Positions 4,815 to 47,335 of a stretch of DNA of 47,335 nt are shown here, one piece after another (position 1 is the first letter of the stretch; each line of letters starts with the position of its first letter). Source of the DNA: Candidatus Harrisonbacteria bacterium RIFCSPHIGHO2_02_FULL_40_20 (GTDB lineage Bacteria > Patescibacteriota > Minisyncoccia > UBA6257 > WO2-44-18); contig MHJF01000023.1 of assembly GCA_001818675.1 (NCBI GenBank), positions 1 through 47,335 of the forward strand, written 5' to 3'. The notes under the pieces are model-generated. The model did no database searches, was not told where the DNA came from, and saw only the letters and a program-made list of their open reading frames with translations. The position numbers and the translations under genes are program-made.

Positions 4815-4862
4815 TCAAAAGTCAAAATTCAAAAATCAAAATTACAATTCAAAAATAAAAAG
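4815..4862. repeat. heptanucleotide tandem array (TCAAAAN x7)
   Basis: TCAAAAG TCAAAAT TCAAAAA TCAAAAT TACAAT TCAAAAA TAAAAAG, followed at 4863-4898 by a T-rich array that is roughly complementary (TTTTNNN units). Confidence 0.8.
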
Positions 4863-4898
4863 TTTTAACTTTTGCCTTTTAAATTTTGAATTTTCATC

Positions 4899-6564: not shown

Positions 6565-6572
6565 AAATGGTT

Positions 6573-6702
6573 ATGGATCCCGTTAGAGGCAACCCATCTA
6601 TGATTTTTGAAAGATTTCTTGATTTTAGGTATAAAAGTCGATTGCCGTTAAAACGGCCGAGTTACGATTGTCTAAAGACAATCTGTCTCTAACGGGATGG
6701 AT
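6573..6702 (+). repeat. Element-1 copy 1: 130-nt cassette bounded by inverted repeats, ending in an ATG
   Basis: 5' ATGGATCCCGTTAGAGGCA pairs with 3' TGTCTCTAACGGGAT. Internal TTGAAA-N17-TATAAA at 6607-6635. Hairpins at 6644-6657 and 6666-6683. Confidence 0.8.
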
Positions 6703-6780
6703 AAAGCATTTAGTTTATTTTTATTAATAATTTTTGCCGGCATTTTGCTGTATTTTTTGCCGTTAGTTTGTAAGCCCTAA
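6697..6780 (+). CDS. possible 27-aa hydrophobic peptide (MDKAFSLFLLIIFAGILLYFLPLVCKP)
   Basis: Its ATG is the terminal ATGGAT of Element-1 copy 1, the same arrangement as the frr and pheS starts. One TM-like segment. The stop lies 4 nt before copy 2. Confidence 0.3.
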   Translation: MDKAFSLFLLIIFAGILLYFLPLVCKP

Positions 6781-6784
6781 GGAT

Positions 6785-6914
6785 ATGGATCCCGTTAGAG
6801 GCAACCCATCTATGATTTTTGAAAGATTTCTTGATTTTAGGTATAAAAGTCGATTGCCATTAAAATGGCCGAGTTACGATTGTCTAAAGACAATCTGTCT
6901 CTAACGGGATGGAT
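6785..6914 (+). repeat. Element-1 copy 2; its terminal ATGGAT is the frr start
   Basis: Identical to copy 1 except G>A at 6859 and C>T at 6866, which are the two partners of one hairpin base pair. Confidence 0.85.
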
Positions 6915-7465: not shown

Positions 7466-7536
7466 TTAGCGACTAGTGCCTAGCGACTAGTCCGCCGAAG
7501 GCGGAATAAACTAGTGGCTAGTGGCTAGTGGCTAGT
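7466..7536. repeat. ACTAGT-type palindromic intergenic repeat (REP-like), site 1
   Basis: TTAGCGACTAGTGCCTAGCGACTAGT, hairpin CCGCCGAAGGCGG, then ACTAGTGGCTAGTGGCTAGTGGCTAGT. Confidence 0.8.
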
Positions 7537-7539
7537 CTA

Positions 7540-8565
7540 ATGATTATCGTATTAGTAATAATTGCCATTTCTATTTTAATTCTTGTTCATGAACTAGGGC
7601 ATTTTTTAGTTGCCAAGAAATTCGGCCTTTTAGTAGAAGAGTTCGGTATTGGTTTTCCGCCAAGATTATTTTCTAAAAAAATCGGCGAAACGGTTTATAG
7701 CGTAAATCTTTTGCCTTTTGGGGGATTTGTAAAAATTTATGGAGAAAATCTAGAAACGGATAGCGCAGATTTGGAAAAAAACAGCCGGGCTTTTTATAAT
7801 CAAAAATCATGGCGGCGATTATTAGTAATTATCGCCGGGGTAGTAATGAATTTTTTTCTTGGTTGGCTGGTAATGTCTGTTATTTTTATGATTGGCGCTC
7901 CGCAATCTTTAGTCATTACTGATGTTGTCGCGGATTCTCCGGCAGTTTTGGCTGGTTTTCAACCGGGCGACCAATTAGCTGGTTTTAAAAAATCCGTCGA
8001 GTTTATAAACTTTATTGATGTTAATAAGGGCAAGGAAATTACATTAGATGTCATTCGCGCAGGCGAAAATTTATCTATTCAGGTGGTGCCGAGGGTTTCG
8101 TCTCCAGTGGGACAAGGGGCATTGGGGATTGCGTTTGCCGAAGCAGGGTTAGAGAAAATGCCTTTTTTCACCAGTCTTTGGACAGGATTAAAAGCATCTG
8201 TGGGAATAGTAGCAATGATTTTCGTTTCCTTATTTCAGCTTTTATTTTCATTATTTACCGAAGGCCGGATTTTAGAGGGATTCGTCGGGCCAATTGGTAT
8301 TTTTGGAGTTGCCAGCCAAGCCGCTGGATTGGGCGTGGTTTATTTGATGCAGTTGATAGGTTTAATTTCATTAAATCTTTTTGTCTTAAACATTTTGCCG
8401 TTTCCGGCTTTAGACGGCGGCCGAATGTTTTTCATTTTGTTAGAAAAAATTAAAGGCAAGCCCCTATCTGTTAATTTTGAACGATCTGCCAATGCTATTG
8501 GCTTTCTAGTTTTATTATTTCTGATGATTGCTGTGACAGTCAGGGATATTATTAAATTATTTTAG
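7540..8565 (+). CDS. rseP: RIP metalloprotease RseP (site-2 protease, M50)
   Basis: HELGHF zinc motif, a central PDZ-like segment, and a C-terminal PALDGGRM motif. I prefer the ATG at 7540 to the GTG at 7528, which lies inside a repeat. Confidence 0.9.
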   Translation: MIIVLVIIAISILILVHELGHFLVAKKFGLLVEEFGIGFPPRLFSKKIGETVYSVNLLPFGGFVKIYGENLETDSADLEKNSRAFYNQKSWRRLLVIIAGVVMNFFLGWLVMSVIFMIGAPQSLVITDVVADSPAVLAGFQPGDQLAGFKKSVEFINFIDVNKGKEITLDVIRAGENLSIQVVPRVSSPVGQGALGIAFAEAGLEKMPFFTSLWTGLKASVGIVAMIFVSLFQLLFSLFTEGRILEGFVGPIGIFGVASQAAGLGVVYLMQLIGLISLNLFVLNILPFPALDGGRMFFILLEKIKGKPLSVNFERSANAIGFLVLLFLMIAVTVRDIIKLF

Positions 8566-13583: not shown

Positions 13584-15417
13584 AGAATCGGTTTTTGACA
13601 GTTATGCCCAAGACTTGGACCATGTGGAATTTCCGCTTTCTCGGAAGGCCTTTATTTTGATTGTTGGTTTAGCGGGATTTTTACTAGCCATAGCTTTGTT
13701 CCGAGTCGCGGCCCTCAATTTATTTAACGGCGTTTTTTATAAAGCTCGGGCTGAAGCCAATGTTAATCGTGAAGTAATGATTCCGGCCTATCGCGGTATT
13801 ATTGTGGATCGCTATGGCGAATCTTTGGTGGAGAACCAGCCATCTTTTAGCGTCTTTGTTAATTTGGCGGAGATTTTGCGTAATACCGAGAATTTTAATG
13901 GGGCGTTGATTAAGTTAGCTGAAGTTTTGGAGGTTAGCGTTGACGACATTTTTTTTAGAATTAATGAGGCCAGCGTGAATCAGAATCTTATTGCTGTTGG
14001 CCGTAATATTTCTCCAGATCAAATTATTGCTTTGGAGAGCTTAAAAATTAAAGGAGTCACTATTGAGGATGACTACGTCCGTTTTTATAAAACGGGGCCA
14101 GTTTTTTCTCATATTTTAGGTTATCCTGGCGAAGTTGATGTGGGTTTAGAGTCAATTTATGATGATCGTTTGCGCGGCCAGAATGGCATTTCTATAATTT
14201 TTGAAAATGTGAAGGGTGAGGGGATTGATAAGAAAATTCTAAGCGAAGCCGTTTCCGGGAAGGAGCTTCAGTTAACCATTGACGCTGGCTTGCAAGAATT
14301 TTTTTATAATCGACTGAATTCCGCGATTCATTCGCTGGGTAGCAAGGGCGGCGTGGGATTAGCTTTGAATCCCCAGAATGGAGAGGTGCTATCTTTAGTA
14401 AGTTTGCCGAGTTATGACAATAATTTATTTGCCCGTTCTGGTAATAGCCAGCAAAAAATTAAGCTTTTAAATGATGCTTCCCAGCCTCTTTTTAATAGGG
14501 CTGTATCCGGCGTATATAATCCAGGATCCACAATTAAACCATTAGTTGCTTTAGCGGCTTTACGCGAGGGCTTAATCACTCCAGACGCGGAAGTATTTTC
14601 CCGCGGTTATATTGAAATTCCTAATCCATATTTCCCGGATCAGCCAAGCAGGTTTGTGGATTGGAAACCGCATGGTTGGGTGGATGTTCATTCCGCTTTG
14701 GCGCGCTCCAGTAACGTTTATTTTTATACTTTAGGCGGGGGGTTGCCAGTGAGTGAGTCTTTGTTGTTACGGGGTTCAATTGGTATCAAGGGCTTGAGAA
14801 TAGAAAAACTGCGAGCTTATTGGCAGAAGTTTTTATTAGATCAGAAAACTGGTATTGATTTGAGCGCGGAGAATTCTGGGTTTTTGCCGGATCCGGAAGA
14901 AAAAGAGAAGCGTACGGGGCAGATTTGGCGAATCGGCGATACTTACAACGTGAGCATTGGTCAGGGGGATCTTTTAGTTACGCCGTTGGAGCTTTTGAAT
15001 TTTATTAGTTCCATTGCTAATGGAGGGAAAATATATCAGCCGCATCTTATAAGTGAGACACAGCCAAAAGTTTTATTGGATTATTCAGAATGGGCTAACG
15101 AAATTAAAGAAGTGCGGCTGGGAATGGAGGATGCGGTAAGCAAGTGGTACGGCACCGCAAGTCTTTTAAGTTCTTTGCCCATTGTGGCCGCCGCCAAAAC
15201 CGGAACCGCGCAAATTCAGAATAATACCAAGACGAACGCTTTTTTCGTTGGTTATTTGCCCACTGAAGCTTTGGCGAACGCGGGCGCGCCCCTAGATAAG
15301 CAGATAGCTATTTTAGTTTTAGTAGAGAATGCCCGTGAAGGTGGTTTAAACGCAGTTCCGGTCGCGAAGGATGTTTTGGAATGGTATTATTACAATAGGT
15401 TAGCGACTAGTGATTAG
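13555..15417 (+). CDS. mrdA: penicillin-binding protein 2 (transpeptidase)
   Basis: 620 aa with SxxK (GSTIKP), SxN (SSNVYF) and KTG (AKTGTA) motifs. Follows mreD. Confidence 0.9.
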   Translation: MPQNRDLDFEESVFDSYAQDLDHVEFPLSRKAFILIVGLAGFLLAIALFRVAALNLFNGVFYKARAEANVNREVMIPAYRGIIVDRYGESLVENQPSFSVFVNLAEILRNTENFNGALIKLAEVLEVSVDDIFFRINEASVNQNLIAVGRNISPDQIIALESLKIKGVTIEDDYVRFYKTGPVFSHILGYPGEVDVGLESIYDDRLRGQNGISIIFENVKGEGIDKKILSEAVSGKELQLTIDAGLQEFFYNRLNSAIHSLGSKGGVGLALNPQNGEVLSLVSLPSYDNNLFARSGNSQQKIKLLNDASQPLFNRAVSGVYNPGSTIKPLVALAALREGLITPDAEVFSRGYIEIPNPYFPDQPSRFVDWKPHGWVDVHSALARSSNVYFYTLGGGLPVSESLLLRGSIGIKGLRIEKLRAYWQKFLLDQKTGIDLSAENSGFLPDPEEKEKRTGQIWRIGDTYNVSIGQGDLLVTPLELLNFISSIANGGKIYQPHLISETQPKVLLDYSEWANEIKEVRLGMEDAVSKWYGTASLLSSLPIVAAAKTGTAQIQNNTKTNAFFVGYLPTEALANAGAPLDKQIAILVLVENAREGGLNAVPVAKDVLEWYYYNRLATSD

Positions 15418-15485
15418 TGCTTAGCGATTAGTAAATTTAAAATTATTTTTTTACTAGTGGCTAGTTACTAGTGGCTAAACACTAA
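15399..15485. repeat. ACTAGT-type palindromic intergenic repeat, site 2
   Basis: TTAGCGACTAGTGATTAGTGCTTAGCGATTAGT ... ACTAGTGGCTAGTTACTAGTGGCTAA. It overlaps the last codons of mrdA. Confidence 0.8.
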
Positions 15486-15489
15486 TTTT

Positions 15490-16482
15490 ATGAATTCCGA
15501 ATTGAGGCAAGATTTAGTTTCCGGCGATTGGATTGTAGTCGCCCCAGGGCGCGCTTGGCGGCCTAATTTTTTTGTTAAAAACAAATCTAAAAGGAAGCCC
15601 GATCTTATTAAGGGTTGCCCATTTGAGCATCCGCAGTTTTCTAAGAATGGAAAACCGGATTTAATATATCCTAATCATCAGGATTGGGTGGTTCAGGTTT
15701 TTCCTAATAAATATCCGGCGGTGATTCAGAAAAAGAAAAATATTCGCGCTGGGGTTTCTAAGCATGGCCCATACTCAATATTTCCCGGAGTTGGCTATCA
15801 TGATTTAGTAGTTACTCGGGATCATTATAAAAATTTCCCTCGACTTTCTCGTGACAAGGCGAATTTAGTTTTTCGCGCTTTTCAGGATCGGTATTTAGTT
15901 TTAAGCGACCATGATTACATTGACTATGTTTCTATTTTGCATAATTGGGGGCCAACCGCTGGCGCTTCGGTTTTTCACCCGCATTACCAGATTATTTCTA
16001 TCCCGATGGTGCCGCCGGACATTAACCACTCCTTAACTGGTTCAGCGCGCTATTTTAAAAGCCATAGAAAATGCGTGCATTGCGTGATGATTGATTTGGA
16101 GTTGAAAGAAAAAAAAAGAATTATATTTGAGAATGAGAAAGCGGTAGCTTTTGCGCCTTTTGTTTCCCGCGGCCCTTTTGAGGTGCGGGTATTTCCTAAA
16201 AGTCATTTGCCTTATTTTGAGAATACCTACGATGAAGATATGGAGTCGGTGGTGGAGGCGCTTCAGTATTCTTTGAGATCTCTTGAGAAAAATCTAGGAG
16301 ACCCGGATTATAATTTTTTTATTCATACTTCGCCCATTAAAGATAAGGAGAAATATCGCCATTATCATTGGCATATTGAGATTACGCCCGTAATTTCTAT
16401 TCGCGGCGGCTTTGAGTGGGGGACGGGCATTGATATTAATGTGATTGATCCAGATAATGCCGCTAAGATATTGAGAGTTTGA
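15490..16482 (+). CDS. galactose-1-phosphate uridylyltransferase family (HIT superfamily) nucleotidyltransferase
   Basis: 330 aa with FHPHYQI (HxHxQ active site) and a second half-domain HYHWHIEI. Confidence 0.7.
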   Translation: MNSELRQDLVSGDWIVVAPGRAWRPNFFVKNKSKRKPDLIKGCPFEHPQFSKNGKPDLIYPNHQDWVVQVFPNKYPAVIQKKKNIRAGVSKHGPYSIFPGVGYHDLVVTRDHYKNFPRLSRDKANLVFRAFQDRYLVLSDHDYIDYVSILHNWGPTAGASVFHPHYQIISIPMVPPDINHSLTGSARYFKSHRKCVHCVMIDLELKEKKRIIFENEKAVAFAPFVSRGPFEVRVFPKSHLPYFENTYDEDMESVVEALQYSLRSLEKNLGDPDYNFFIHTSPIKDKEKYRHYHWHIEITPVISIRGGFEWGTGIDINVIDPDNAAKILRV

Positions 16483-16841: not shown

Positions 16842-16913
16842 GAAGGCTAAACCCCGAATTTAAAATTTGGGGTCGCCCGATCAAAACGCAGTTTTGATTT
16901 AGGGAGGTGACAG
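16842..16913 (+). promoter_or_regulatory. Element-2 leader (variant II) upstream of a small-protein operon
   Basis: GAAGGCTAAAC, a variable hairpin, then CGATCAAAAC-GCA-GTTTTGATTTAGGGAGG, then the ATG at 16914. Confidence 0.6.
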
Positions 16914-17093
16914 ATGATGAATGTTATGTTGACGAAGCTGTTGGGATTTTTTCTGCTTCTTACTTTTGTGGTTTCTTTAACTGCCGCGATTTATGTTCCT
17001 TATTGTCGGAATAAATATAAGCCTAAGAAATCAAAAAATAATAAGGATGATGATTGCGGTTGCGGCGATAAAGGAGGTTGTTCTAATGACTGA
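16914..17093 (+). CDS. hypothetical 59-aa membrane protein with basic and Cys-rich tail
   Basis: Below the ORF-track size cut-off. GGGAGG SD lies 6 nt upstream. Sequence: MMNVMLTKLLGFFLLLTFVVSLTAAIYVPYCRNKYKPKKSKNNKDDDCGCGDKGGCSND. Confidence 0.5.
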   Translation: MMNVMLTKLLGFFLLLTFVVSLTAAIYVPYCRNKYKPKKSKNNKDDDCGCGDKGGCSND

Positions 17094-17301: not shown

Positions 17302-17310
17302 CTAAGATGT

Positions 17311-17340
17311 CCTCCGACGTTACGTCGGAGGGCTTTTTTA
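17311..17340 (+). terminator. intrinsic terminator after the small-protein operon
   Basis: CCTCCGACG-TTA-CGTCGGAGG followed by CTTTTTTATT. Confidence 0.8.
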
Positions 17341-17370
17341 TTGGTCAATAAATTGTTATATTTCTTATTA

Positions 17371-17498
17371 ATGGATCCCGTTAGAGGCAATTAAAATAAT
17401 GATGGCAAACAATACGATTCAATATATTAAAGCGTCGGTGGTTCTTAAAATGGCCGAGTTACGGTCGCCTTTGGCGACCTGCCTCTAACGGGATGGAT
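17371..17498 (+). repeat. Element-1 copy 3; its terminal ATGGAT is the pheS start
   Basis: Same termini (ATGGATCCCGTTAGAGGCA ... TGCCTCTAACGGGATGGAT) and same TTAAAATGGCCGAGTTACG block. The 7-bp hairpin at 17463-17479 has an unrelated sequence but the same position. Confidence 0.8.
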
Positions 17499-18494
17499 TT
17501 TGATGTTTTAAGGCGTAATGTTTTGGAGGCGATTAAGAAAACTCAAGATGTTAAGGGTTTAGAGCAGATTCGTATTAAGTATTTGGGGCGCCAGGATGGC
17601 GAACTTATTAAGATTTTGCGTTCGTTAAAAGATTTATCGGTTGAGGAAAAAAGAAAGCTAGGACCGGCGGCTAATTTTTTGCGTAACGAATTGGAAGCCG
17701 CATTTATAAATAAGCTTGAAAATTTAAAATTAAAAATTAGAAATTCCCAATCTAATTTAGATGTTACTCTGCCCGGAAAGAAGGTTCCGGTTGGCCATTT
17801 ACACCCGCTGACTTTAATGGAAAACCGGATTCGGGAAATTTTTCAAAGTTTAAGTTTTTCCGTAGTGGAAGGCCCGGAAGTAGAAAGCGATTACTATAAT
17901 TTTGATGCTTTAAATATTCCAGCTAATCATCCAGCTCGAGATATGTGGGATACCTTTTGGCTTCGTCAAAAAGTTCAAAGTTCAAAGTTCAAAGTTCAAA
18001 GTCTCTTATTGCGTACCCACACTAGCCCGGTTCAAATTCGTTATATGGAAAAGCATCAGCCGCCGTTTCAAATAATTGTGCCCGGCCGGGTTTTTCGTTA
18101 TGAGGCAACGGATGCCACTCACGAGATTAATTTTCATCAGATTGAGGGTTTGATGGTGGGGGAGGATGTTTCTTTGGCGAATTTTAAATATATTATTGAA
18201 GAGTTTTTAAAGCAATTATTTGGAAAAAATATTCATTTTCGATTTAGGCCCAGTTATTTCCCTTTTACTGAACCCAGTTTAGAAGTAGATATTCAGCTTG
18301 GCGGCAAATGGTTAGAAGTGATGGGCGCTGGAATGGTTCATCCCAAAGTTTTTGACGCTGTGAAATATAATTCAAAAGAAGTTAGGGGATTTGCTTTTGG
18401 CCTTGGTTTGGAAAGATTGGCAATGATTAAATATAAGATTGATGATATCCGATTATTTTATTCAGGTGATTTAAGATTTATAAAACAATTCTGA
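17493..18494 (+). CDS. pheS: phenylalanyl-tRNA synthetase alpha subunit
   Basis: 333 aa with HPARDMWDTFW, LLRTHTSPVQIR, FRPSYFPFTEPS and GFAFGLGLERLAM. Confidence 0.95.
   Translation: MDFDVLRRNVLEAIKKTQDVKGLEQIRIKYLGRQDGELIKILRSLKDLSVEEKRKLGPAANFLRNELEAAFINKLENLKLKIRNSQSNLDVTLPGKKVPVGHLHPLTLMENRIREIFQSLSFSVVEGPEVESDYYNFDALNIPANHPARDMWDTFWLRQKVQSSKFKVQSLLLRTHTSPVQIRYMEKHQPPFQIIVPGRVFRYEATDATHEINFHQIEGLMVGEDVSLANFKYIIEEFLKQLFGKNIHFRFRPSYFPFTEPSLEVDIQLGGKWLEVMGAGMVHPKVFDAVKYNSKEVRGFAFGLGLERLAMIKYKIDDIRLFYSGDLRFIKQF
17970..18002 (+). repeat. heptanucleotide tandem repeat (AAAGTTC x4 plus a partial unit) inside pheS
   Basis: Four perfect 7-nt units at 17970-17997 plus a partial unit. Translated as KVQSSKFKVQS between conserved WDTFW and LLRTHTSP. 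Confidence 0.9.
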
Positions 18495-20477: not shown

Positions 20478-20501
20478 AAGCCCTGCCTGCCGGCAGGCAG
20501 G
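20478..20501. repeat. GC-rich palindromic 24-mer, intergenic copy
   Basis: AAGCCCTGCCTGCCGGCAGGCAGG. The core 20 bp, CCTGCCTGCCGGCAGGCAGG, is a perfect palindrome. Confidence 0.9.
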
Positions 20502-22071: not shown

Positions 22072-22490
22072 GGCGCCTCCCATGGGAATTGAACCCAACG
22101 GTCGTCTTTTTCTCTGATCCAGATATCGGGTGTAATAGTGCTTTGAGGATGCTTGAATAGAGTAACAATGAAAGAGCCGCAATTGTTGAAGTTCCAGAGA
22201 GTTTGTCCGGTGTCGGCGATATCGTCCACTACTAAAGTTTTTTCCCAGAATTCTGGCATATAAAATGACATAAAACCAAAATTGTTGGGAAGACCTGGTT
22301 TTCTTTCTCTATCGGGACAAAGAAGATGAGAGAGTTTTACAGCTAGTATGACTCCTCCCCGGGGCGGCCCGTAAATATATTTAAATTTTTTACCCCACGC
22401 TTTTATAGTGTCAGCAATTTTTCGAGCGTCTACCTCAAATTCTTCCCAGGTATAAACCTGAATGCCTGCATTGGGTGGCTGGTTAGCCAT
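22068..22490 (-). CDS. gpt: xanthine-guanine phosphoribosyltransferase-like
   Basis: 140 aa from MANQPP. The layout is collinear with E. coli Gpt: YTWEEFEVDARKIA, PRGGVILA, PRPP motif LVVDDIADTGQTL, and C-terminal DRWVQFPWE. Confidence 0.8.
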   Translation of the reverse strand: MANQPPNAGIQVYTWEEFEVDARKIADTIKAWGKKFKYIYGPPRGGVILAVKLSHLLCPDRERKPGLPNNFGFMSFYMPEFWEKTLVVDDIADTGQTLWNFNNCGSFIVTLFKHPQSTITPDIWIREKDDRWVQFPWEAP

Positions 22491-22588
22491 GTGTTGCCTC
22501 CCTAAATCAAAACGAAGTTTTGATCGGCTATAGCCCGATGGGCTCGCCCATTTAGGTGCGAACAATTTGCAAAGTAAATTGTTTTAGC
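22491..22588 (-). promoter_or_regulatory. Element-2 leader (variant I) upstream of gpt-guaB
   Basis: The reverse complement matches 27282-27377 with 4 substitutions in the shared ~92-nt block. It ends GATCAAAAC-TTC-GTTTTGATTTAGGGAGG before the ATG. Confidence 0.65.
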
Positions 22589-22699
22589 TTTTTCAAATTT
22601 CAACGAACAACGCATTTTAGCGTAGCATTTTTAGTATAGCTTCGCAATAACTTTCTCTTTCTTTTAACTCTCTTTTTTGTTATAATAAAGAAATCTGCA

Positions 22700-26424: not shown

Positions 26425-26491
26425 GAAGGCTAAACCTCGAATTTTCGAGGTCGCTCGATCAAAACCTCGTTTTGATTTAGGGAGATGGCAA
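26425..26491 (+). promoter_or_regulatory. Element-2 leader (variant II) upstream of Nudix hydrolase
   Basis: GAAGGCTAAAC, hairpin CCTCGA/TCGAGG, then CGATCAAAAC-CTC-GTTTTGATTTAGGGAG. Lies downstream of the promoter at 26375-26403. Confidence 0.65.
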
Positions 26492-27037
26492 ATGGCCAAA
26501 GTTTGCGATCACACGAGCGTGGGTTTGCTTTTATCATATCAGAATAACAATGATTGGCAGTTACGTTTTTTAATGATAGAGCGGCATAATTATCCTCAAG
26601 CAATAGCTTTGCCAGCTGGGCATTGTGATGGCGACGATTTCTATAAAGCTATACGGCGTGAAGGTAAGGAAGAAGTCGGGATAGATCTCGGAAATTTAAA
26701 TTTGAATTTTGTTGCAAGAATAGATAATCCCTGTAAACGTCAGGATGGATCTCACCATATTTGGGGAATTTTTGAGGGATATTTTTATAGTGGTACTGTA
26801 GCTGCTGGCAGCGATGCTAAAAGATTTTTCTGGGCCACTCTTGACGAGTTAAGAAAATTTTCTCAAAGAACCGAATTTTTTATGAAGAAATATTCTGTTG
26901 ATTGGCAGGACGTTGGTAAGTTGACTAAGGCCATTTTTGGCGATCCACAGAATCCTCAAGTTGATCCGGATTGGCAAAAGGAAATGGGCCTTGAGCCGGT
27001 GTGGTATTATATACTGAAGAAATTGATGTATATTTAG
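26492..27037 (+). CDS. Nudix hydrolase with C-terminal extension
   Basis: Starts at MAKVCDH, after the shared hairpin-SD leader. Nudix box-like GHCDGDDFYKAIRREGKEEVGI. The ORF-track start at 26423 lies inside the leader. Confidence 0.75.
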   Translation: MAKVCDHTSVGLLLSYQNNNDWQLRFLMIERHNYPQAIALPAGHCDGDDFYKAIRREGKEEVGIDLGNLNLNFVARIDNPCKRQDGSHHIWGIFEGYFYSGTVAAGSDAKRFFWATLDELRKFSQRTEFFMKKYSVDWQDVGKLTKAIFGDPQNPQVDPDWQKEMGLEPVWYYILKKLMYI

Positions 27038-27160: not shown

Positions 27161-27281
27161 TCAGAGTTTGAATTATAAAGAAACCACGGACTTTAGTTCG
27201 TAGAATTTTATTGGTACGGGGTTGCGGAGGCGGTTTTTATTTTCTATAATCTTATTACGTTCTTTTACATAAATAAAAAGA

Positions 27282-27377
27282 CTAAAACAATTTGCTTTGC
27301 AAATTGTTCGCCCCTAAATGGGCGAGCCCATCGGGCTATAGCCGATCAAAACCCCGTTTTGATTTAGGGAGGCATAT
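27282..27377 (+). promoter_or_regulatory. Element-2 leader (variant I) upstream of dCMP deaminase
   Basis: 10-bp hairpin AACAATTTGC/GCAAATTGTT, TCGCCC-CTAAAT-GGGCGA, GATCAAAAC-CCC-GTTTTGATT, then AGGGAGG and the GTG. Confidence 0.65.
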
Positions 27378-27938
27378 GTGGATAAAACCGAACGTCCGCA
27401 GTGGGACGAAATTTTTCTTTTAATGGCCGCGGTGTTTTCATCTCGGGGGTCTTGCGATCGTTTACTGACTTCCTGTTTTTTAGTGAAGAATAAACGGATT
27501 GTTGGAGTTGGTTATAATGGCGCGGTGGCCGGTCTTTCTAATTGTGATGAAGTGGGGCATTTAATGGTTGATAATCATTGCGTTCGGACTATTCATGGCG
27601 AAGATAATGCTGTAAATAATGCCGTTGCTGACTTAGATGGCGCCACGGCTTATGTTATTGCCACTCCTTGTTTAGATTGCGTTAAGAATCTTTTACAAAA
27701 AGGGATTAAGCGCATTGTCTATGTGGGTATTTACGCAAATTCTAAAGGATTAGAGCATATTGAGAGTTTTTGTAAGGAAAAGGCCGTGGTTTTAGATCAT
27801 TTCAGCGATCCAAGAATTCTTCTGTCAATCTTGCGAAAAGTGCTTAATCGTTTGCGTGGTCCGGGGGGAATTTTAAAAGATATTCCCGAAGAAGAAATAT
27901 TTTTATTGTTAAGGGGCAATAATAATTTTTCAACTTAA
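27378..27938 (+). CDS. dCMP deaminase (ComEB/Dcd-type zinc deaminase)
   Basis: GTG start 6 nt after GGGAGG. Contains WDEIFLLMA, HGEDNA and PCLDC zinc motifs. Confidence 0.88.
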   Translation: MDKTERPQWDEIFLLMAAVFSSRGSCDRLLTSCFLVKNKRIVGVGYNGAVAGLSNCDEVGHLMVDNHCVRTIHGEDNAVNNAVADLDGATAYVIATPCLDCVKNLLQKGIKRIVYVGIYANSKGLEHIESFCKEKAVVLDHFSDPRILLSILRKVLNRLRGPGGILKDIPEEEIFLLLRGNNNFST

Positions 27939-33884: not shown

Positions 33885-33972
33885 TGGTTAGCGACTAGTG
33901 TTGAGTGACTAACCCGACTAATTATTTATTGTCCGTCGGACTAGTGGCTAACCACTAGTGGCTAGTCGCTGA
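33885..33972. repeat. ACTAGT-type palindromic intergenic repeat, site 3
   Basis: GGTTAGCGACTAGTG ... GGACTAGTGGCTAACCACTAGTGGCTAGTCGCTGA, between thrS and dnaE. Confidence 0.8.
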
Positions 33973-36900
33973 TTAAAGCGCTATTGCTTCTTCGCAAATA
34001 AGCTTGGCTTCACCATCGCGCATAGAAATTTTTCCTCTAATGCAAACTGGCCCATTTTCTATCCAAACAGGGATGCTTCGAGCAAGAGTTTCGGGGAAAA
34101 CTACTATTTCCATCGCATCATTAAAATCTTCTACTTTCGCGAACAACATTGGTTTTCCGGTTTTGGTAATGATTTTTTGCAGTTTAGAAATGACCCCGGC
34201 AATTATTTGATAGCCGCTGGTTTCTGCGCGCACTTCTTTAATGGGCCGCGCTTTTAAGGTTTCTATTTTTTGGCGGTAACTGTTTAAGGGATGGTCGGAG
34301 ATATATAATCCGAGCAGTTCTTTTTCCCAAGTTAATTTTTCTTGGGATGTCGCTGGCGCCACCTTTTTGAGCCTTAAGGATTGCGAATTTGATCCTGTGC
34401 GGCCGAATAATCCGATTTGACTGCTCACAGACTCTTTTTTAAGTGCGCTGTGCCACTTGAGAACTTCTTCTATATTAGAAACTATTTGATTGCGTTCTAT
34501 TCCTAGAGAATCTAAGGCGCCGGATTTTGCCAGGCTTTCCATAGATTTTTTATTGAAGTCTTTATGTTGGACTCGGTTTAATAATTCAGTGAGATTGACA
34601 AATGGCCCGCTTCGTTCTCTCGCTTCAATGATCGCGCCTACTATCGCAGTGCCAATATTTTTAATAGCCGTCAGCCCAAAGCGGATATTATTTTCTTCAC
34701 AGGTAAAGGCGCTGGCGCTTTTGTTGACGTCCGGCGGCAATACTTGAATATTCATTTTTTTGCATTCGCTGATTAAAAAAGCGATACGCTCTACGTCGCC
34801 AGAATCTGCATTCAGCAAGCTAGCCATAAATTCCGAAGGATAATTGGCTCTTAAATAGGCGGTTTGATAGCCAATCATCGCATAACAAGCGGCATGGCTG
34901 CGGTTAAAGCCATAGCGGGCAAAAGGAGGGAAGAGGTCCCAGATGGCTTTAGCCGATTTGGCGTCGATCCCGTTTTTAAGCATTCCGTTAATTAATCTTT
35001 CGCTTTGTTTATCCAGCAGTTCTTTAATTTTTTTACCAATAGCTTTTCGCAGAGTATCGGCTTCCGCCAAAGTAAATCCTGCTAAATCTCTGGCAATGCG
35101 CATCATTTGTTCTTGATAGATTCCTACGCCGTAGGTAGTTTTTAAAATTGGTTCTAATTTTGGATGGACATACTCAATTTTTTCTTTGCCGTGTTTTCTT
35201 TTGATATAGCTTGGGATAAGTTCTATCGGTCCGGGGCGATACAGCGCCACCATCGCGATAATGTCCTCAATTTCGGTAGGCTTTAATTCTTTGAGATATC
35301 TTCTCATACCCGAAGATTCTAATTGAAATACTCCGGTAGTTTCGGCGGCTTGAAGCATAGCAAAAGTTTTTTTGTCATCCAGCGGCAAGCTAGAGATATT
35401 TATTTTTTTACCGGTACGTTCTTGGATTAATCGGAGGGTGTCTTCAATAATTGTTAAGTTTTTTAATCCCAGAAGATCAATTTTTAAGAGGCCAATATCT
35501 TCCACGCTATGCATTTCAAACTGGGTAACAATCACATCTTTGGCTTTTTGGAGCGGTAGGTATTCGGTTAGGTCTTTGGCGGCAATGACAGTGCCACAAG
35601 CATGGACAGAAGCATGGCGGACTACGCCCTCAAAATGTTTGGCTATATCTATAATTTTTTTTGCATCAGCATCACCGTTATAAAGCTTTGTGAATTCCGG
35701 TATTAATTTTAATGCTTCATCAATATCAGTATTAAAGGGAATTAGTTTTGCGATTTTATCGCATAACGCAAGATTAATTCCTAAGGCTCGTCCAACATCA
35801 CGGACAGAAAGCCGCGCCGCCATTGTTCCAAAAGTAATTATGTTGGCAACTCGGTTTTCCCCGTATTTTTCTTTTAAATATCCAAAAACTTCATCGCGCC
35901 GACGGTCAGTAATATCTACGTCAATGTCAGGCATTTGAATGCGATCGGGGTTCAAGAATCTTTCAAAAAGCAGGTCGTATTTTAACGGGTCAATATCAGT
36001 AATGCCGAGTATGTAGGCCAGTAAACTTCCTGCCGCAGATCCTCGGCCCGGACCAACAACGATATTGCGGTCTTTTGCCCAGTTAATAAAGTCTTGAACT
36101 ATTAAGAGATAATCCTCAAATCCGGTTTTTTCAATTACTCCAAGTTCATAATCGAGCCTTTCTTGGATTTTAGGCGTGATTTCAGAGAATCTTTGCCCCA
36201 CTCTTTCTCGAATAAGTTCTTTAAGATAATTGATTCCAGATTGGCCGTTTGGAGTATCAAATTTTGGCAATAGGACTTGGTGAAGTTTTAATTCAACATT
36301 ACATTGGTCAGAGATTTTTGCAGTATTGGCAACCGCTTCTGGAGTATCTTTGAAGAGCTCTGCCATTTCTTCTGGAGACGTCATGGAAAAATCGTCGTCT
36401 TTAAGAGTCAGCCGATCAGTATCCGTAACTTTATTGCCAGTTTGAATGGCGAGAAAAATATCGTGATAAGTCGCGTCTTCTTTTTTTAAATAATGGATAT
36501 CTTGGGTGGCGACAAGGGGGATGTTGGTTTTTTTAGAAATTTGAATCAAACCATTATGGACCTTGATGGTTTCTTTAATTCCGGGATGATGTCCAATTTC
36601 AATGAAAAAATTTCCCGCGCCAAAAATATTTAAGTATTCTAGCGCTACCTCTTCTGCTTTTTGCGCTTTTCCCTGTAGAAGCATTCGGGACACTTCGCCT
36701 GATAAACATCCGGAAAGCGCAATCAATCCTTCCGAATGTTGTTTTAGGATTTCTTTACTCATCTGGGGTTTGTAATAAAAACCGTGCAGATGGCTATGGG
36801 TGACTAATTTTAAAAGATTTTTCCAGCCAGTTTCATTTTTGGCTAAAAGTATAAGATGGAAATATTTATTTTGCGGATCGTCGGACGCGACATAGGCCTC

Positions 36901-38504: not shown

Positions 38505-38666
38505 ATGGGTGGCGTACCAGTTAAACATCATAGTAAATCAAAAGTTGGCCGTCGGCGGTCGCATTTAGCTTTGAAGAAAACCAATATTTTTGTTTGTAAA
38601 AATTGCCAAGGGCCAACGATGCCGCACAGATCCTGCGCGCAATGCGGAGCGTATAATCAGAAATAA
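38505..38666 (+). CDS. rpmF: 50S ribosomal protein L32
   Basis: 53-aa ORF below the track cut-off: MGGVPVKHHSKSKVGRRRSHLALKKTNIFVCKNCQGPTMPHRSCAQCGAYNQK. It has the L32 layout with CxxC...CxxC. Confidence 0.85.
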   Translation: MGGVPVKHHSKSKVGRRRSHLALKKTNIFVCKNCQGPTMPHRSCAQCGAYNQK

Positions 38667-38789
38667 ACTCAAAACTTAAAATGCGAAATTGCAATTTAAA
38701 AGTAAAAAGTTTTTTTTTAAAAAACAATTTTGCATTTTAACTTATAATTTTGACCTTTGATTTTTAAATTTTGAATTCAACACCAAAGT

Positions 38790-39326: not shown

Positions 39327-39393
39327 GCCAATAGGGTTTAGGGCGTAGCCAATAGGTTTACTAGTGGCTATACCTTAGTCGCTAGTGGCTAAT
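39327..39393. repeat. ACTAGT-type intergenic repeat, site 4
   Basis: GCCAATAGGGTTTA / GCCAATAGGTTTA, then ACTAGTGGCTATACCTTAGTCGCTAGTGGCTAA, between nusB and rnc. Confidence 0.7.
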
Positions 39394-39396
39394 CGA

Positions 39397-40077
39397 ATGG
39401 ATTTCTCAAAACTCGAAGAAAAAATTAGTTATAAGTTTAAAGACAGAGATTTGCTTAAAGAATCTTTGACGCACCGCTCGTATCTTAATGAAAATCCTTC
39501 TTGGCATTTGCCTAATAATGAAAGATTGGAATTTTTAGGGGACGCGGTTTTAGAATTGGCTACTACGGAAGAATTGTATAATCGATATCCGGAGTCTCAA
39601 GAGGGAGAGTTGACTAGTTATCGCGCGGCGCTAGTTAATTATCAAATGATGGCTACTATTGCCAAAGAAATTGGCTTAGAAAATTTTGTTTTGTTGTCGC
39701 GTGGAGAAGCTAAAGATATGGGGCGCGCTCGTGATGTGATTTTAGCGAACGCGATGGAAGGATTGATCGGCGCTATTTATTTAGATTCAGATTATTTAGG
39801 GGCTAAAAAATTTGTGAAAGCTTTTGTGCTAAGCCATTTGGCAGAAGTTATAGCTAAGGGATTATATAAAGACGCAAAAAGTTTATTGCAGGAAAAATCT
39901 CAGGCGGATTTGAAGATTACCCCGAATTATAAAGTGATTTCGGAAAAAGGGCCGGATCATTCCAAGATTTTTGAAGTGGGAGTATTTTTAAATGATAAAA
40001 TGGTTGCTATCGGTAGTGGCCAGTCTAAGCAAGACGCGGAAGTTGAGGCGGCCAAGAGGGCGCTGGAAAATTTATAA
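39397..40077 (+). CDS. rnc: ribonuclease III
   Basis: Signature ERLEFLGDAVLE and a C-terminal dsRBD. I prefer the ATG at 39397 to the GTG at 39385, which lies inside a repeat. Confidence 0.93.
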   Translation: MDFSKLEEKISYKFKDRDLLKESLTHRSYLNENPSWHLPNNERLEFLGDAVLELATTEELYNRYPESQEGELTSYRAALVNYQMMATIAKEIGLENFVLLSRGEAKDMGRARDVILANAMEGLIGAIYLDSDYLGAKKFVKAFVLSHLAEVIAKGLYKDAKSLLQEKSQADLKITPNYKVISEKGPDHSKIFEVGVFLNDKMVAIGSGQSKQDAEVEAAKRALENL

Positions 40078-46739: not shown

Positions 46740-47335
46740 ATGAAATTTGATATATTAACTATCTTTCCTAATATTTTCCAGTCTTATTTTAACGAATCAA
46801 TTTTAAAACGCGCTCAGAAAAATGGGCTTATTAAAATTGCATCGCACAACTTGCGCAATTTTACCGCAGATAAACATCATAAAGTTGATGACAGCCCTTA
46901 CGGCGGAGGACCAGGAATGGTTATAAAAATTGAACCGATTTTTAAAGCTGTTCAGCATTTAAAAGTTAAAAGCCATAAAGCCCTGCCTGCCGGCAGGCAG
47001 GTAAAAACTAGAGTAATCTTATTTTCAACACGAGGTAAAAAGTTAGATTCCAAAGTTGCTAAAAGGCTTTCTAAATATGATCAGCTGATATTAATTTGCG
47101 GGCGTTATGAGGGCGTAGATGAGCGAGTAGCGCAATACATTGCTGACGAAGAAATTTCTATTGGAGATTATGTATTATCTGGTGGCGAATTGCCGGCAAT
47201 GATTTTAGTTGAAGCGGTTTCCCGTTATCTTCCAGGCGTTTTAGGTAAATATGAATCTCTAGAAGATATTAAGGGTAGTTACCCCGTATATACAAAGCCG
47301 GAGATATTTAAACCAAGAACCCCGCCAAGGGCGAG
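46740..47335 (+). CDS. trmD: tRNA (guanine37-N1)-methyltransferase (3' end cut by window edge)
   Basis: Open to the window end and absent from the ORF track. Contains [36 protein letters not shown] and [15 protein letters not shown]. Confidence 0.92.
46978..47001. repeat. GC-rich palindromic 24-mer, copy inside trmD
   Basis: Identical 24-mer, in frame, encoding KALPAGRQ in a variable TrmD loop. Confidence 0.9.

What the first reader, a model, noticed from the sequence alone, without database searches (positions are those of the whole stretch)
17371..17498. Third, diverged copy of the cassette supplies the pheS start codon and shows whole-helix covariation
Copy 3 keeps both termini, and its arms are now perfectly complementary (GAGGCA / TGCCTC). 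It also keeps the block TTAAAATGGCCGAGTTACG. The 7-bp hairpin between that block and the 3' arm is entirely different in sequence but identical in position and length: GGTCGCC-TTT-GGCGACC here, against GATTGTC-TAAA-GACAATC in copies 1 and 2. A weaker promoter-like ATGGCA-N17-TATTAA sits at the homologous place. In all three copies the downstream protein begins Met-Asp, encoded by the cassette end. Both frr and pheS appear full-length from that ATG.
Basis: seen in the sequence. Interest (0 to 1): 0.65.

Follow-up and report, generated by a model that had tools for sequence, protein, structure and literature searches.

The report
Start-codon-inserting palindromic mobile element
The 128-base cassette in front of pheS is a recent insertion of a small palindromic mobile element that lands exactly on gene start codons and duplicates them. 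It belongs to a family found across the ultra-small Patescibacteria (CPR) bacteria, and its full-length relatives encode a tiny GIY-YIG nuclease.

Summary
The window holds exactly three copies, at 6573-6702, 6785-6914 and 17371-17498.

Close relatives give clean empty sites for all three. Each empty site has a single ATGGA(T/C), which is the host gene's own start (pheS, frr and a 27-aa ORF). In the window this hexamer flanks the element on both sides.

The termini CCCGTTAGAG...CTCTAACGGG define a family spread across many Patescibacteria lineages.
- In 72 of 86 elements an ATG that opens a long ORF directly follows the right end.
- The left flank is ATGxyT, and xy matches the right flank in 49 of 51 cases.
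- Lengths fall into classes of about 50, 118 and 275 nt.
- The 275-nt class encodes a 94-aa single-domain GIY-YIG nuclease. Its ORF starts at the captured host ATG (MNPVRD...). It ends ...LSLTG, with TGA overlapping the regenerated ATG.

The closest published system is Ssn/SRM (2025). The published SRM motif does not match, and neither start-codon insertion nor Patescibacteria is described there.

Two things remain inferred: which enzyme moves the element, and how pheS is translated behind copy 3.

The parts
17371..17498 (+). Copy 3 of the element with both flanking ATGGAT hexamers. The core is 17377-17492 (116 nt). It lies between the terminator of the upstream gene and pheS.
   Evidence: The empty site in L124 shows it is an insertion.
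17371..17376 (+). Left ATGGAT: the original position of the pheS start, still behind the native promoter. It now opens a 7-codon ORF (MDPVRGN, stop at 17392-17394).
   Evidence: Translation read directly from the sequence; ORF lengths.
17375..17389 (+). Left terminal inverted repeat ATCCCGTTAGAGGCA.
   Evidence: Family-wide conservation.
17402..17437 (+). Internal promoter-like stretch: ATGGCA (17402-17407), a 17-nt spacer, TATTAA (17425-17430; TATATT at 17423-17428), then the conserved GTCG (17434-17437). Function not shown.
   Evidence: Not reported by the consensus scan. GTCG preceded by an A-rich box recurs in 18 of 37 class-A elements, against 3.1 expected.
17445..17463 (+). Conserved block TTAAAATGGCCGAGTTACG, shared with copies 1 and 2 and with relatives found in metagenomes.
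17463..17479 (+). Subterminal hairpin GGTCGCC-TTT-GGCGACC. It has the same position and length as GATTGTC-TAAA-GACAATC in copies 1 and 2.
   Evidence: Covariation count. Hairpin variants picked without regard to pairing.
17480..17494 (+). Right terminal inverted repeat TGCCTCTAACGGGAT. Its last two bases are the A and T of the pheS ATG.
17493..18494 (+). pheS (PheS alpha subunit, 333 aa), starting at the right-hand copy of the duplicated ATGGAT.
17354..17362 (+). Native pheS promoter candidate: an extended -10 box TGTTATATT, ending 8 nt before the left ATG. It is conserved in the empty-site relative and implies a leaderless or near-leaderless mRNA.
   Evidence: Sequence (inference).
17309..17333 (+). 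Intrinsic terminator of the upstream gene. It is also present at the empty site and marks the left limit of the pheS control region.
6573..6702 (+). Copy 1 (core 6579-6696, 118 nt), inserted at the start of a conserved 27-aa ORF (6697-6780). A pass-through ORF of 39 codons runs from the left ATG to a TAA in the right repeat, 4 nt before the host ATG.
   Evidence: Empty sites L212 and L213.
6785..6914 (+). Copy 2 (core 6791-6908, 118 nt), inserted at the frr start (6909). It is 98% identical to copy 1. It carries TTGAAA (6819-6824), a 17-nt spacer and TATAAA (6842-6847).
   Evidence: Empty sites L212 and L213.
6567..6572 (+). An extra, degenerate hexamer ATGGTT to the left of copy 1. The matching AGGAT at 6780-6784 lies to the left of copy 2. 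Both are absent from the empty sites and are unexplained.

Best explanation
Copy 3 is a non-autonomous miniature member (MITE-like) of a palindromic mobile-element family found across Patescibacteria. The family inserts exactly at start codons of the form ATG-purine-purine.

**Shown**
- The element is an insertion.
- The host's ATGGA(T) is duplicated, so the gene keeps an ATG at the element's right edge.
- The 10-13-nt termini are conserved across many CPR lineages.
- A subterminal hairpin is maintained through compensatory changes.
- The 272-278-nt members carry one gene, a 94-aa single-domain GIY-YIG nuclease closest to the UPF0213/Slx1 branch. Its reading frame begins at the captured host ATG (M-N-P-V-R-D, which is the left repeat). 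It ends L-S-L-T-G-stop (the right repeat), with TGA overlapping the regenerated ATG.

**Inferred**
- The miniatures arose from such full-length elements by internal deletion and are moved in trans.
- The most likely agent is the GIY-YIG nuclease acting on the hairpin or cruciform that the repeats form in single-stranded DNA. The related Ssn nucleases cut single-stranded DNA a few bases 5' of their hairpin repeats.
- Host genes survive because the element is transcribed from the native promoter, which often lies just upstream of the ATG. The host ATG is then reached by translational coupling.
- In full-length elements the coupling signal is the ATGA overlap. In many miniatures it is a pass-through ORF ending TAA-CGGG-ATG.

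**Specific to copy 3**
- The pass-through frame is closed after 7 codons.
- So pheS probably depends on the internal -10-like box and GTCG start region, or on the short ORF melting the 15-bp stem that holds the A and U of the pheS AUG.
- This last step is the least certain.
For: **Insertion and duplication**
- Empty sites exist for all three copies.

**Family-wide regularities**
- 72 of 86 elements are followed directly by an ATG that opens a long ORF.
- 51 of those 72 have an ATG 6 nt before the left end, and the next two bases agree left and right in 49 of 51.
- The flanks are purine-purine in nearly all cases, against 17 of 40 for the window's gene starts in general.
- Tandem elements share one hexamer.

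**Distribution**
- The family occurs in Saccharibacteria, Wolfe-, Yanofsky-, Kaiser-, Nomura-, Campbell-, Azam- and Zambryskii-bacteria and in Paceibacterota.
- No paired element was found on viral contigs.

**Link to the GIY-YIG gene**
- All seven elements of 272-278 nt hold the gene or its remains.
- It matches Pfam PF01541 at E = 1e-16.
- Of the best 120 homologues, 77 start MNPVRD and 90 end FLSLTG.
- The fold is nearest UPF0213 and Slx1.
- An intact 273-nt element lies on the same contig as miniatures of the copy-3 subfamily in a related organism.

**Hairpin and repeats**
- The hairpin covaries.
- The first position beyond the 10-nt core of the terminal repeat is complementary in 78 of 85 elements.

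**Coupling**
- Lengths of the form 3n+1 account for 37 of 64 miniatures.
- The frame from the left ATG is open in 24 of 64, against 6 and 1 for the other two frames, and the peptides are not conserved.

**Native signals**
- SD-like sequence upstream of the left ATG occurs in only 7 of 85.
- A -10-like box ends 5-9 nt before the left ATG in 34 of 84, against 10-19 in control windows.

**Orientation**
- Of the miniatures with the subterminal hairpin, 28 have it next to the host gene's ATG and 0 have it at the far end, in the search that was blind to orientation.

**Precedent**
- PMC11893778 describes 94-aa single-domain GIY-YIG nucleases flanked by hairpin repeats.
Against: - No GIY-YIG gene lies in this window, and the rest of the source genome could not be searched.
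- No GIY-YIG enzyme is known to transpose an element with terminal repeats and a target duplication. No nuclease activity was tested here.
- The full-length and miniature elements on one contig do not always share subterminal sequence.
- A few miniatures sit inverted relative to the host gene. An outward promoter therefore cannot be strictly required.
- Copies 1 and 2 carry an extra degenerate hexamer that a simple duplication does not explain.
- No RNA data exist for these organisms, so every statement about transcription and translation is inference.
- The length and open-frame statistics do not correct for shared descent of the copies.
- The sequences used for the covariation count were chosen because they have a local hairpin.
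Confidence: 0.78

Rival explanations
1. An ordinary MITE moved by a conventional transposase (DDE or other) encoded elsewhere in the genome. On this view the small GIY-YIG gene is only a passenger, or an independent user of the same ends.
For: Terminal inverted repeats plus a short target duplication are the hallmark of transposase-driven elements (established knowledge). The window has no GIY-YIG gene. No GIY-YIG transposase is known.
Against: Every long element with these termini (7 of 7) holds only the GIY-YIG gene. The termini lie inside its coding sequence in most of the 120 best homologues. No other ORF bounded by these repeats was seen in about 120 loci.
Confidence: 0.12
2. A domesticated Ssn-like system. 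On this view the repeats are host-useful targets of a single-strand-specific GIY-YIG nuclease, for example controlling incoming DNA during natural transformation as in Neisseria. They would be kept at gene starts for that purpose rather than as selfish mobile DNA.
For: The Ssn precedent: hairpin repeats cluster around genes and the nuclease modulates transformation (PMC11893778). The protein has the same size and single-domain build. The terminal sequence is strongly conserved across CPR lineages.
Against: The three window copies were gained after the split from relatives 87-93% identical in the neighbouring protein. This shows ongoing insertion at new genes. The published SRM motif has no match here. 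Position exactly on start codons with a duplication is not a feature described for NTS/SRM.
Confidence: 0.2
3. A conserved cis-regulatory RNA leader (riboswitch-like or protein-binding) that pheS, frr and the small ORF share by descent or duplication, and not an insertion.
For: It folds stably with a closing stem that includes part of the start codon. The helix covaries. It always lies directly 5' of an ORF.
Against: Orthologous sites in close relatives lack it entirely. It precedes unrelated genes in many lineages. No Rfam family matches. Long members are protein-coding.
Confidence: 0.03

Closest known systems
Ssn nucleases with SRM/NTS hairpin repeats (Chenal et al. 2025, Nat Commun, PMC11893778)
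   Same: A single-domain GIY-YIG protein of about 94 aa, flanked on both sides by inverted-repeat sequence that also occurs in many ORF-less copies next to genes. The architecture is IS-like. The repeats form hairpins and have a direction.
   Different: - The published degenerate SRM motif has no match in the window or around the full-length CPR elements.
- Here the two repeats form one split palindrome that encloses the gene and lies inside its coding sequence.
- The elements sit exactly on start codons with an ATGxy duplication.
- The paper's main text does not mention Patescibacteria, start codons or target duplications.
- Whether the CPR protein belongs to the Ssn clade (cd10448) or to UPF0213 could not be tested. 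The nearest solved structures are UPF0213 and Slx1.
Bacterial MITEs such as the Correia (NEMIS) elements of Neisseria and ERIC/RU elements (from established knowledge; reviews PMC10969869 and PMC2229807 appeared in the search list)
   Same: About 100-150 bp, terminal inverted repeats, a short target duplication and many copies close to gene 5' ends. They are co-transcribed, fold into long stems and sometimes carry promoter-like boxes.
   Different: The Correia target is TA and its parent transposase is unknown. None is described as landing on the start codon and regenerating it, or as having a GIY-YIG-encoding full-length form.
REP/REPIN repeats with RAYT transposases, and IS200/IS605
   Same: Hairpin repeats spread by a single small nuclease gene that is itself flanked by the repeats. 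The chemistry works on single-stranded DNA hairpins, and insertion is strongly orientation-dependent.
   Different: Those enzymes are HUH tyrosine transposases, and IS200/IS605 makes no target duplication and has no terminal inverted repeats. Here the only associated protein is a GIY-YIG nuclease, and a 5-6-bp duplication is seen.
Free-standing GIY-YIG homing endonuclease genes (phage T4 Seg proteins, I-TevI)
   Same: A selfish GIY-YIG nuclease gene wedged between host genes without destroying them.
   Different: Homing enzymes carry a separate DNA-binding domain and home to one cognate site. The CPR protein is the catalytic domain alone, and the elements sit at many unrelated genes.
Rickettsia palindromic elements, and byp elements of yeast mitochondria (from established knowledge)
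   Same: Small palindromic mobile insertions that are compatible with expression of the gene they sit in. Byp elements are flanked by matching codons.
   Different: Those lie inside coding regions and are translated in frame or bypassed. Here the element sits at the first codon. No bypass has been shown.

Membership tests
Prokaryotic MITE (non-autonomous element with terminal inverted repeats) | Short, with no complete transposase gene | tested here: met
   116-118-nt cores. Only short, non-conserved ORFs.
Prokaryotic MITE (non-autonomous element with terminal inverted repeats) | Terminal inverted repeats | tested here: met
   A 15-bp perfect repeat in copy 3. The 10-nt core is conserved across the family.
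Prokaryotic MITE (non-autonomous element with terminal inverted repeats) | Target-site duplication, shown by comparison with an empty site | tested here: met
   A single ATGGA(T/C) at L124, L212 and L213, against two flanking copies in the window. The left and right flanks agree in 49 of 51 elements.
Prokaryotic MITE (non-autonomous element with terminal inverted repeats) | Multiple dispersed copies | tested here: met
   Three copies in 47 kb. At least 7 distinct sites in a related organism. Depth over the right end is 30-40 times that of the flanks in groundwater metagenomes.
Prokaryotic MITE (non-autonomous element with terminal inverted repeats) | An autonomous parent with the same ends that encodes the transposase | tested here: inconclusive
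   Long members with the same ends exist and encode a GIY-YIG nuclease. Transposase activity is unknown.
Ssn/SRM system (PMC11893778) | A single-domain GIY-YIG protein of about 94 aa | tested here: met
   Lengths of 93-95 aa, with PF01541 only. The predicted fold is the catalytic domain alone. This applies to the full-length relatives, not to the window.
Ssn/SRM system (PMC11893778) | Protein falls in the cd10448 clade | not testable with these tools
   No CDD library and no SsnA sequence were available. The nearest solved structures are UPF0213 BH0048 and Slx1. The nearest plasmid-borne genes are YazA-like.
Ssn/SRM system (PMC11893778) | Gene flanked by hairpin-forming repeats that also occur in many ORF-less copies | tested here: met
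   The difference is that the two flanks here form one split palindrome.
Ssn/SRM system (PMC11893778) | Repeats match the published SRM degenerate motif | tested here: not met
   No match in the window (0.15 expected in shuffles) and none around four full-length elements.
Ssn/SRM system (PMC11893778) | Site-specific cleavage of single-stranded DNA only | not testable with these tools
   This is a biochemical assay.
Free-standing GIY-YIG homing endonuclease gene | A nuclease domain plus a separate DNA-binding domain, homing to one cognate site | tested here: not met
   Only 94 aa and a single domain. The elements sit at many unrelated genes.
IS200/IS605 | HUH transposase, subterminal hairpins without terminal repeats, and no target duplication | tested here: not met
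   Terminal repeats and a duplication are present. No HUH gene lies within the ends.
Curated RNA family (Rfam 15) | A match at the family's gathering score | tested here: not met
   No hits in the window at gathering thresholds. Only sub-threshold hits, mostly to the terminator beside the element, at E up to 10.

The most novel reading that the evidence does not exclude
A previously undescribed class of prokaryotic mobile element whose only protein is a 94-aa catalytic-domain-only GIY-YIG nuclease. On this reading the element captures the first codon, and often the leaderless 5' end, of a host gene for its own expression. It regenerates the host start by a 5-bp duplication and keeps the host gene alive through translational coupling. 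In miniatures with a closed frame such as copy 3, it would instead rely on RNA processing or ribosome transfer between the two identical AUGGAU sites at the base of the stem.
Probability: 0.3. Interest if true: 0.85.

Novelty: new variant of a known kind. Interest (0 to 1): 0.7.

Why it matters
- **Tolerated insertion in tiny genomes.** Patescibacteria have very small, gene-dense genomes. An element that can insert into essential genes such as pheS and frr without killing them shows one way selfish DNA persists there.
- **A clean rule to test.** The family inserts at ATG-purine-purine, duplicates five bases and stays co-oriented with the gene. This can be tested biochemically with a 94-aa protein.
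- **A new branch and behaviour for Ssn-like systems.** It would extend the recently described Ssn/hairpin-repeat systems to a new bacterial group and to precise start-codon insertion.
- **An open question on translation.** How is an essential gene translated from an AUG with no Shine-Dalgarno sequence, buried in a -51 kcal/mol stem 122 nt into a probably leaderless mRNA?
- **Genome annotation.** The elements create spurious upstream ATGs, small ORFs and N-terminal extensions in gene calls.

Tried and rejected
- **Rfam.** Searches at gathering and permissive thresholds found no family. There are no tRNA or tmRNA genes in the window.
- **Viral contigs.** 82 single hits at chance level and no paired element. 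There is no sign of phage carriage.
- **RNA evidence.** No RNA runs are available for the window or for a Hainich groundwater relative. The metagenome contigs laid on the window showed only that the right end is highly repeated in the community. They were not informative about presence/absence variation.
- **GIY-YIG gene in the window.** None found by tblastn.
- **Published SRM motif.** No match. The paper's supplements are not held, so Ssn clade membership could not be tested. The plasmid search gave only YazA-like UPF0213 genes.
- **Literature.** Searches for the terminus sequence, for GIY-YIG together with CPR, and for MITEs in Patescibacteria found no description of this element.
- **Regulatory leader.** Considered and rejected because of the empty sites.
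- **Specific targeting of leaderless genes.** Considered and set aside. A -10 box close to the ATG is common among this genome's genes in general (9 of 40), so the enrichment at element sites (34 of 84) is modest.

Full report
**1. The observation**

The region 17371-17498 reads ATGGAT-CCCGTTAGAGGCA ... TGCCTCTAACGGG-ATGGAT. Two more copies lie at 6573-6702 and 6785-6914. They are 98% identical to each other and about 60-65% identical to copy 3 in the interior.

- The 19-nt block TTAAAATGGCCGAGTTACG occurs three times, against 0.01 expected.
- The termini occur six times with no more than one mismatch.
- A profile HMM finds exactly three copies and no fragments.
- The arms of copy 3 form a perfect 15-bp stem. 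Copies 1 and 2 have one G-T position.
- The hairpin next to the right arm differs at most positions, yet it keeps its place and its seven pairs.
- As RNA the three copies fold at -45 to -51.5 kcal/mol (z from -5 to -7). As single-stranded DNA they fold at -21 to -26 kcal/mol.
- PheS and Frr are full length from the right-hand ATG.

**2. It is an insertion, and the hexamer is duplicated host sequence**

The source is a Rifle groundwater CPR genome (GCA_001817995.1). The nearest named relatives of its proteins are Harrisonbacteria.

- **Copy 3.** The closest available relative is L124, with PheS 87% identical. It keeps the upstream terminator and the flank ...AAATTGTTATATTTCTTAGTA, followed by one ATGGAT, which is its pheS start. 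The window has ...AAATTGTTATATTTCTTATTA-ATGGAT-[116 nt]-ATGGAT. More distant relatives (71-79% identical) also lack the element.
- **Copies 1 and 2.** L212 and L213 (Frr 92-93% identical) show single ATGGAC and ATGGAT hexamers. These are the starts of a conserved 27-aa ORF and of frr.
- **Conclusion.** All three copies were gained recently, each at a start codon that began ATGGA. The Met-Asp codons are therefore the host's, not the cassette's.
- **An unexplained detail.** Copies 1 and 2 carry an additional degenerate hexamer on the left (ATGGTT, AGGAT) that the empty sites lack.

**3. The family**

A 14-base pattern is expected to give thousands of chance hits in that collection, and single hits in non-CPR genomes look like chance. 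Nearly all loci with paired, opposed termini are Patescibacteria from many lineages.

Within those loci and the window, 86 elements are bounded by CCCGTTAGAG...CTCTAACGGG. Their lengths cluster near 46-70, 112-124 and 272-278 nt.

- In 72 of the 86, an ATG that opens a long ORF follows the right end directly.
- In 51 of those 72, an ATG lies 6 nt before the left end.
- The two bases after the ATG agree left and right in 49 of 51. They are AA, GA, AG or GG.
- Only 17 of 40 gene starts in the window are purine-purine at that position.
- The base between the left pentamer and CCCG is T in 98% of elements.
- Tandem elements share one hexamer. This means a regenerated start is itself a target.
- No paired element occurs on viral contigs.

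A metagenome scan for the GGCCGAGTTACG block found a related organism. It holds at least seven distinct copy-3-type miniatures in front of different genes, a few inverted copies and a tandem pair.

**4. Link to a GIY-YIG gene**

- All seven elements of 272-278 nt contain a small GIY-YIG gene. Five are intact and two are decayed.
- The ORF begins at the left-flank ATG and reads M-N-P-V-R-D through the left repeat.
- It ends L-S-L-T-G through the right repeat, with TGA overlapping the host ATG (ATGA).
- The protein matches PF01541 at E = 1e-16.
- It has 2296 database relatives. Of the best 120, 77 start MNPVRD, 90 end FLSLTG, and nearly all are 93-95 aa.
- The nearest solved structures are UPF0213 proteins. 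A confident model (pLDDT 86) matches UPF0213 first, then the nuclease domain of Slx1, ahead of UvrC and I-TevI.
- One intact 273-nt element lies on the same contig as copy-3-type miniatures in the related organism.
- The window itself has no such gene.

**5. Structure conservation**

Miniatures come in two builds.
- **Class A**, which includes the window copies, has a compact hairpin just before the right repeat: AC-GG...stem-loop-stem...-TG-YCTCTAACGGG.
- **Class B** splits that inner stem between the two ends.

On 27 class-A right ends the seven-pair helix is 92% paired, against 66% in shuffles and 34-50% when the partners are slid. Six pairs change on both sides, and 56 cells do so against 19 expected. 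One caveat applies: these sequences were chosen for having a local hairpin.

An unbiased subset, selected only by the neighbouring block, shows four perfect variants: GATTGTC/GACAATC, GGTTGTC/GACAACC, GGTCGCC/GGCGACC and GGTCCCGC/GCGGGACC.

The first position beyond the 10-nt core is complementary in 78 of 85 elements. Covariation of the terminal repeats could reflect one protein reading both ends. Covariation of the internal hairpin argues instead for real base pairing, in single-stranded DNA or in RNA.

In the orientation-blind sample, class-A hairpins face the host gene 28 times and face away from it 0 times. Two or three inverted copies exist in one genome.

**6. How host genes stay expressed (inference)**

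- SD-like sequence upstream of the left ATG is rare (7 of 85).
- A -10-like box ends 5-9 nt before the left ATG in 34 of 84, against 10-19 in control windows. This arrangement is common in the window's genes generally.
- For pheS an extended -10 box, TGTTATATT, ends 8 nt before the left ATG and is conserved at the empty site. The native transcript therefore probably starts at or next to the left ATG and carries the whole element.
- Lengths of the form 3n+1 dominate (37 of 64). The frame from the left ATG is open through the element in 24 of 64, against 6 and 1 for the other frames. It ends at a TAA in the right repeat, 4 nt before the host ATG. The peptides are not conserved.
- Together with the ATGA overlap of the full-length elements, this points to translational coupling. 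Copies 1 and 2 fit this pattern, each with a 39-codon pass-through ORF.

Copy 3 does not fit. Its frame stops after 7 codons, as it does in its metagenomic relatives. For copy 3 the candidates are:
- an internal start region. A -10-like TATATT/TATTAA is followed by GTCG, a motif present in 18 of 37 class-A elements against 3.1 expected, and usually 29 nt before the hairpin;
- opening of the stem by ribosomes translating the short ORF;
- RNA processing at the stem base;
- ribosome transfer between the two AUGGAU sites.

No RNA data exist to choose between them.

**7. Comparison with what is known**

No paper in the library holds the terminus sequence or describes such an element in CPR bacteria.

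The closest system is the Ssn family (PMC11893778). These are 94-aa single-domain GIY-YIG nucleases that cut single-stranded DNA a few bases 5' of hairpin repeats (NTS/SRM). The repeats flank the gene in an IS-like way and occur in hundreds of copies.

The CPR family shares that architecture but differs in four ways.
- The published SRM motif does not match.
- The two ends form one split palindrome inside the coding sequence.
- The elements sit on start codons with a duplication.
- Clade membership is untested, and the nearest solved structures are UPF0213 and Slx1.

It behaves like a MITE (all the structural criteria are met) and like REP/RAYT in concept. It is not a homing endonuclease gene in the classical sense, nor an IS200/IS605 element.

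**8. Verdict**

The element is a new variant of a known kind: a MITE-like, Ssn-like hairpin repeat. It has an unusually precise and interesting rule of insertion at start codons. Two questions remain open and testable: which enzyme moves it, and how the gene behind it is translated.

Noticed in passing
window 16877-16916 (+), 26456-26499 (+), 27331-27390 (+), 22483-22527 (-); inverted pair 22495-22593 / 27276-27374: A second repeated 5' leader cassette, CGATCAAAAC-NNN-GTTTTGATTTAGGGAGG followed 5-7 nt later by the start codon. It precedes four genes, including a NUDIX gene, a dCMP deaminase gene and a phosphoribosyltransferase-like gene. Two of the four share 99 nt at 94% identity. No Rfam match.
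   Followed up: partly
window 7466-7553, 15407-15496, 33888-33983, 39357-39403: Short-period CTAGTGGCTAGTGG / TAGCGACTAGTG repeats in intergenic DNA just upstream of several genes. Their function is unknown.
   Followed up: no
window 20478-20501 and 46978-47001; also L125 and L126: An identical perfect palindrome, AAGCCCTGCCTGCCGGCAGGCAGG, after pheT and again near the end of the window. A near-identical copy occurs in a relative. It may be a shared terminator or another small repeat.
   Followed up: no
window 6697-6780: A 27-aa hydrophobic ORF (MDKAFSLFLLIIFAGILLYFLPLVCKP) upstream of frr, conserved in relatives L212-L214. In those relatives its stop overlaps the frr start (TAATG). Gene callers are likely to miss this small membrane protein.
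   Followed up: partly
window 6567-6572 and 6780-6784; L110 upstream of its element: An extra degenerate copy of the target hexamer to the left of copies 1 and 2 (ATGGTT, AGGAT), absent from the empty sites. L110 shows ATGGAT-CGT-ATGGAT. It could be a footprint of an earlier insertion or co-copied donor flank.
   Followed up: partly
window 17354-17362: An extended -10 box, TGTTATATT, ends 8 nt before the original pheS ATG and is conserved at the empty site (L124). Many genes in the window have a TATAAT-like box 6-12 nt before the ATG and no SD, which suggests frequent leaderless or short-leader mRNAs.
   Followed up: partly
L056:1203-1477, L062 (three elements), L082:2154-2425: Elements with the same termini, two of them full length with the GIY-YIG gene, on MAG contigs labelled Zetaproteobacteria, Planctomycetaceae and Gammaproteobacteria. 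This is either transfer out of Patescibacteria or mis-binning.
   Followed up: no
L221:5087-5201: A chimeric miniature. Its left and central part resembles window copies 1 and 2, while its hairpin is the copy-3 type. This suggests recombination between subfamilies.
   Followed up: no
window 4818-4866, 38665-38713, 38735-38777: An A-rich repeat of about 49 nt (AAAGTCAAAATTCAAAAATCAAAATTACAATTCAAAAATAAAAAGTTTT), present twice directly and once inverted, in intergenic DNA.
   Followed up: no
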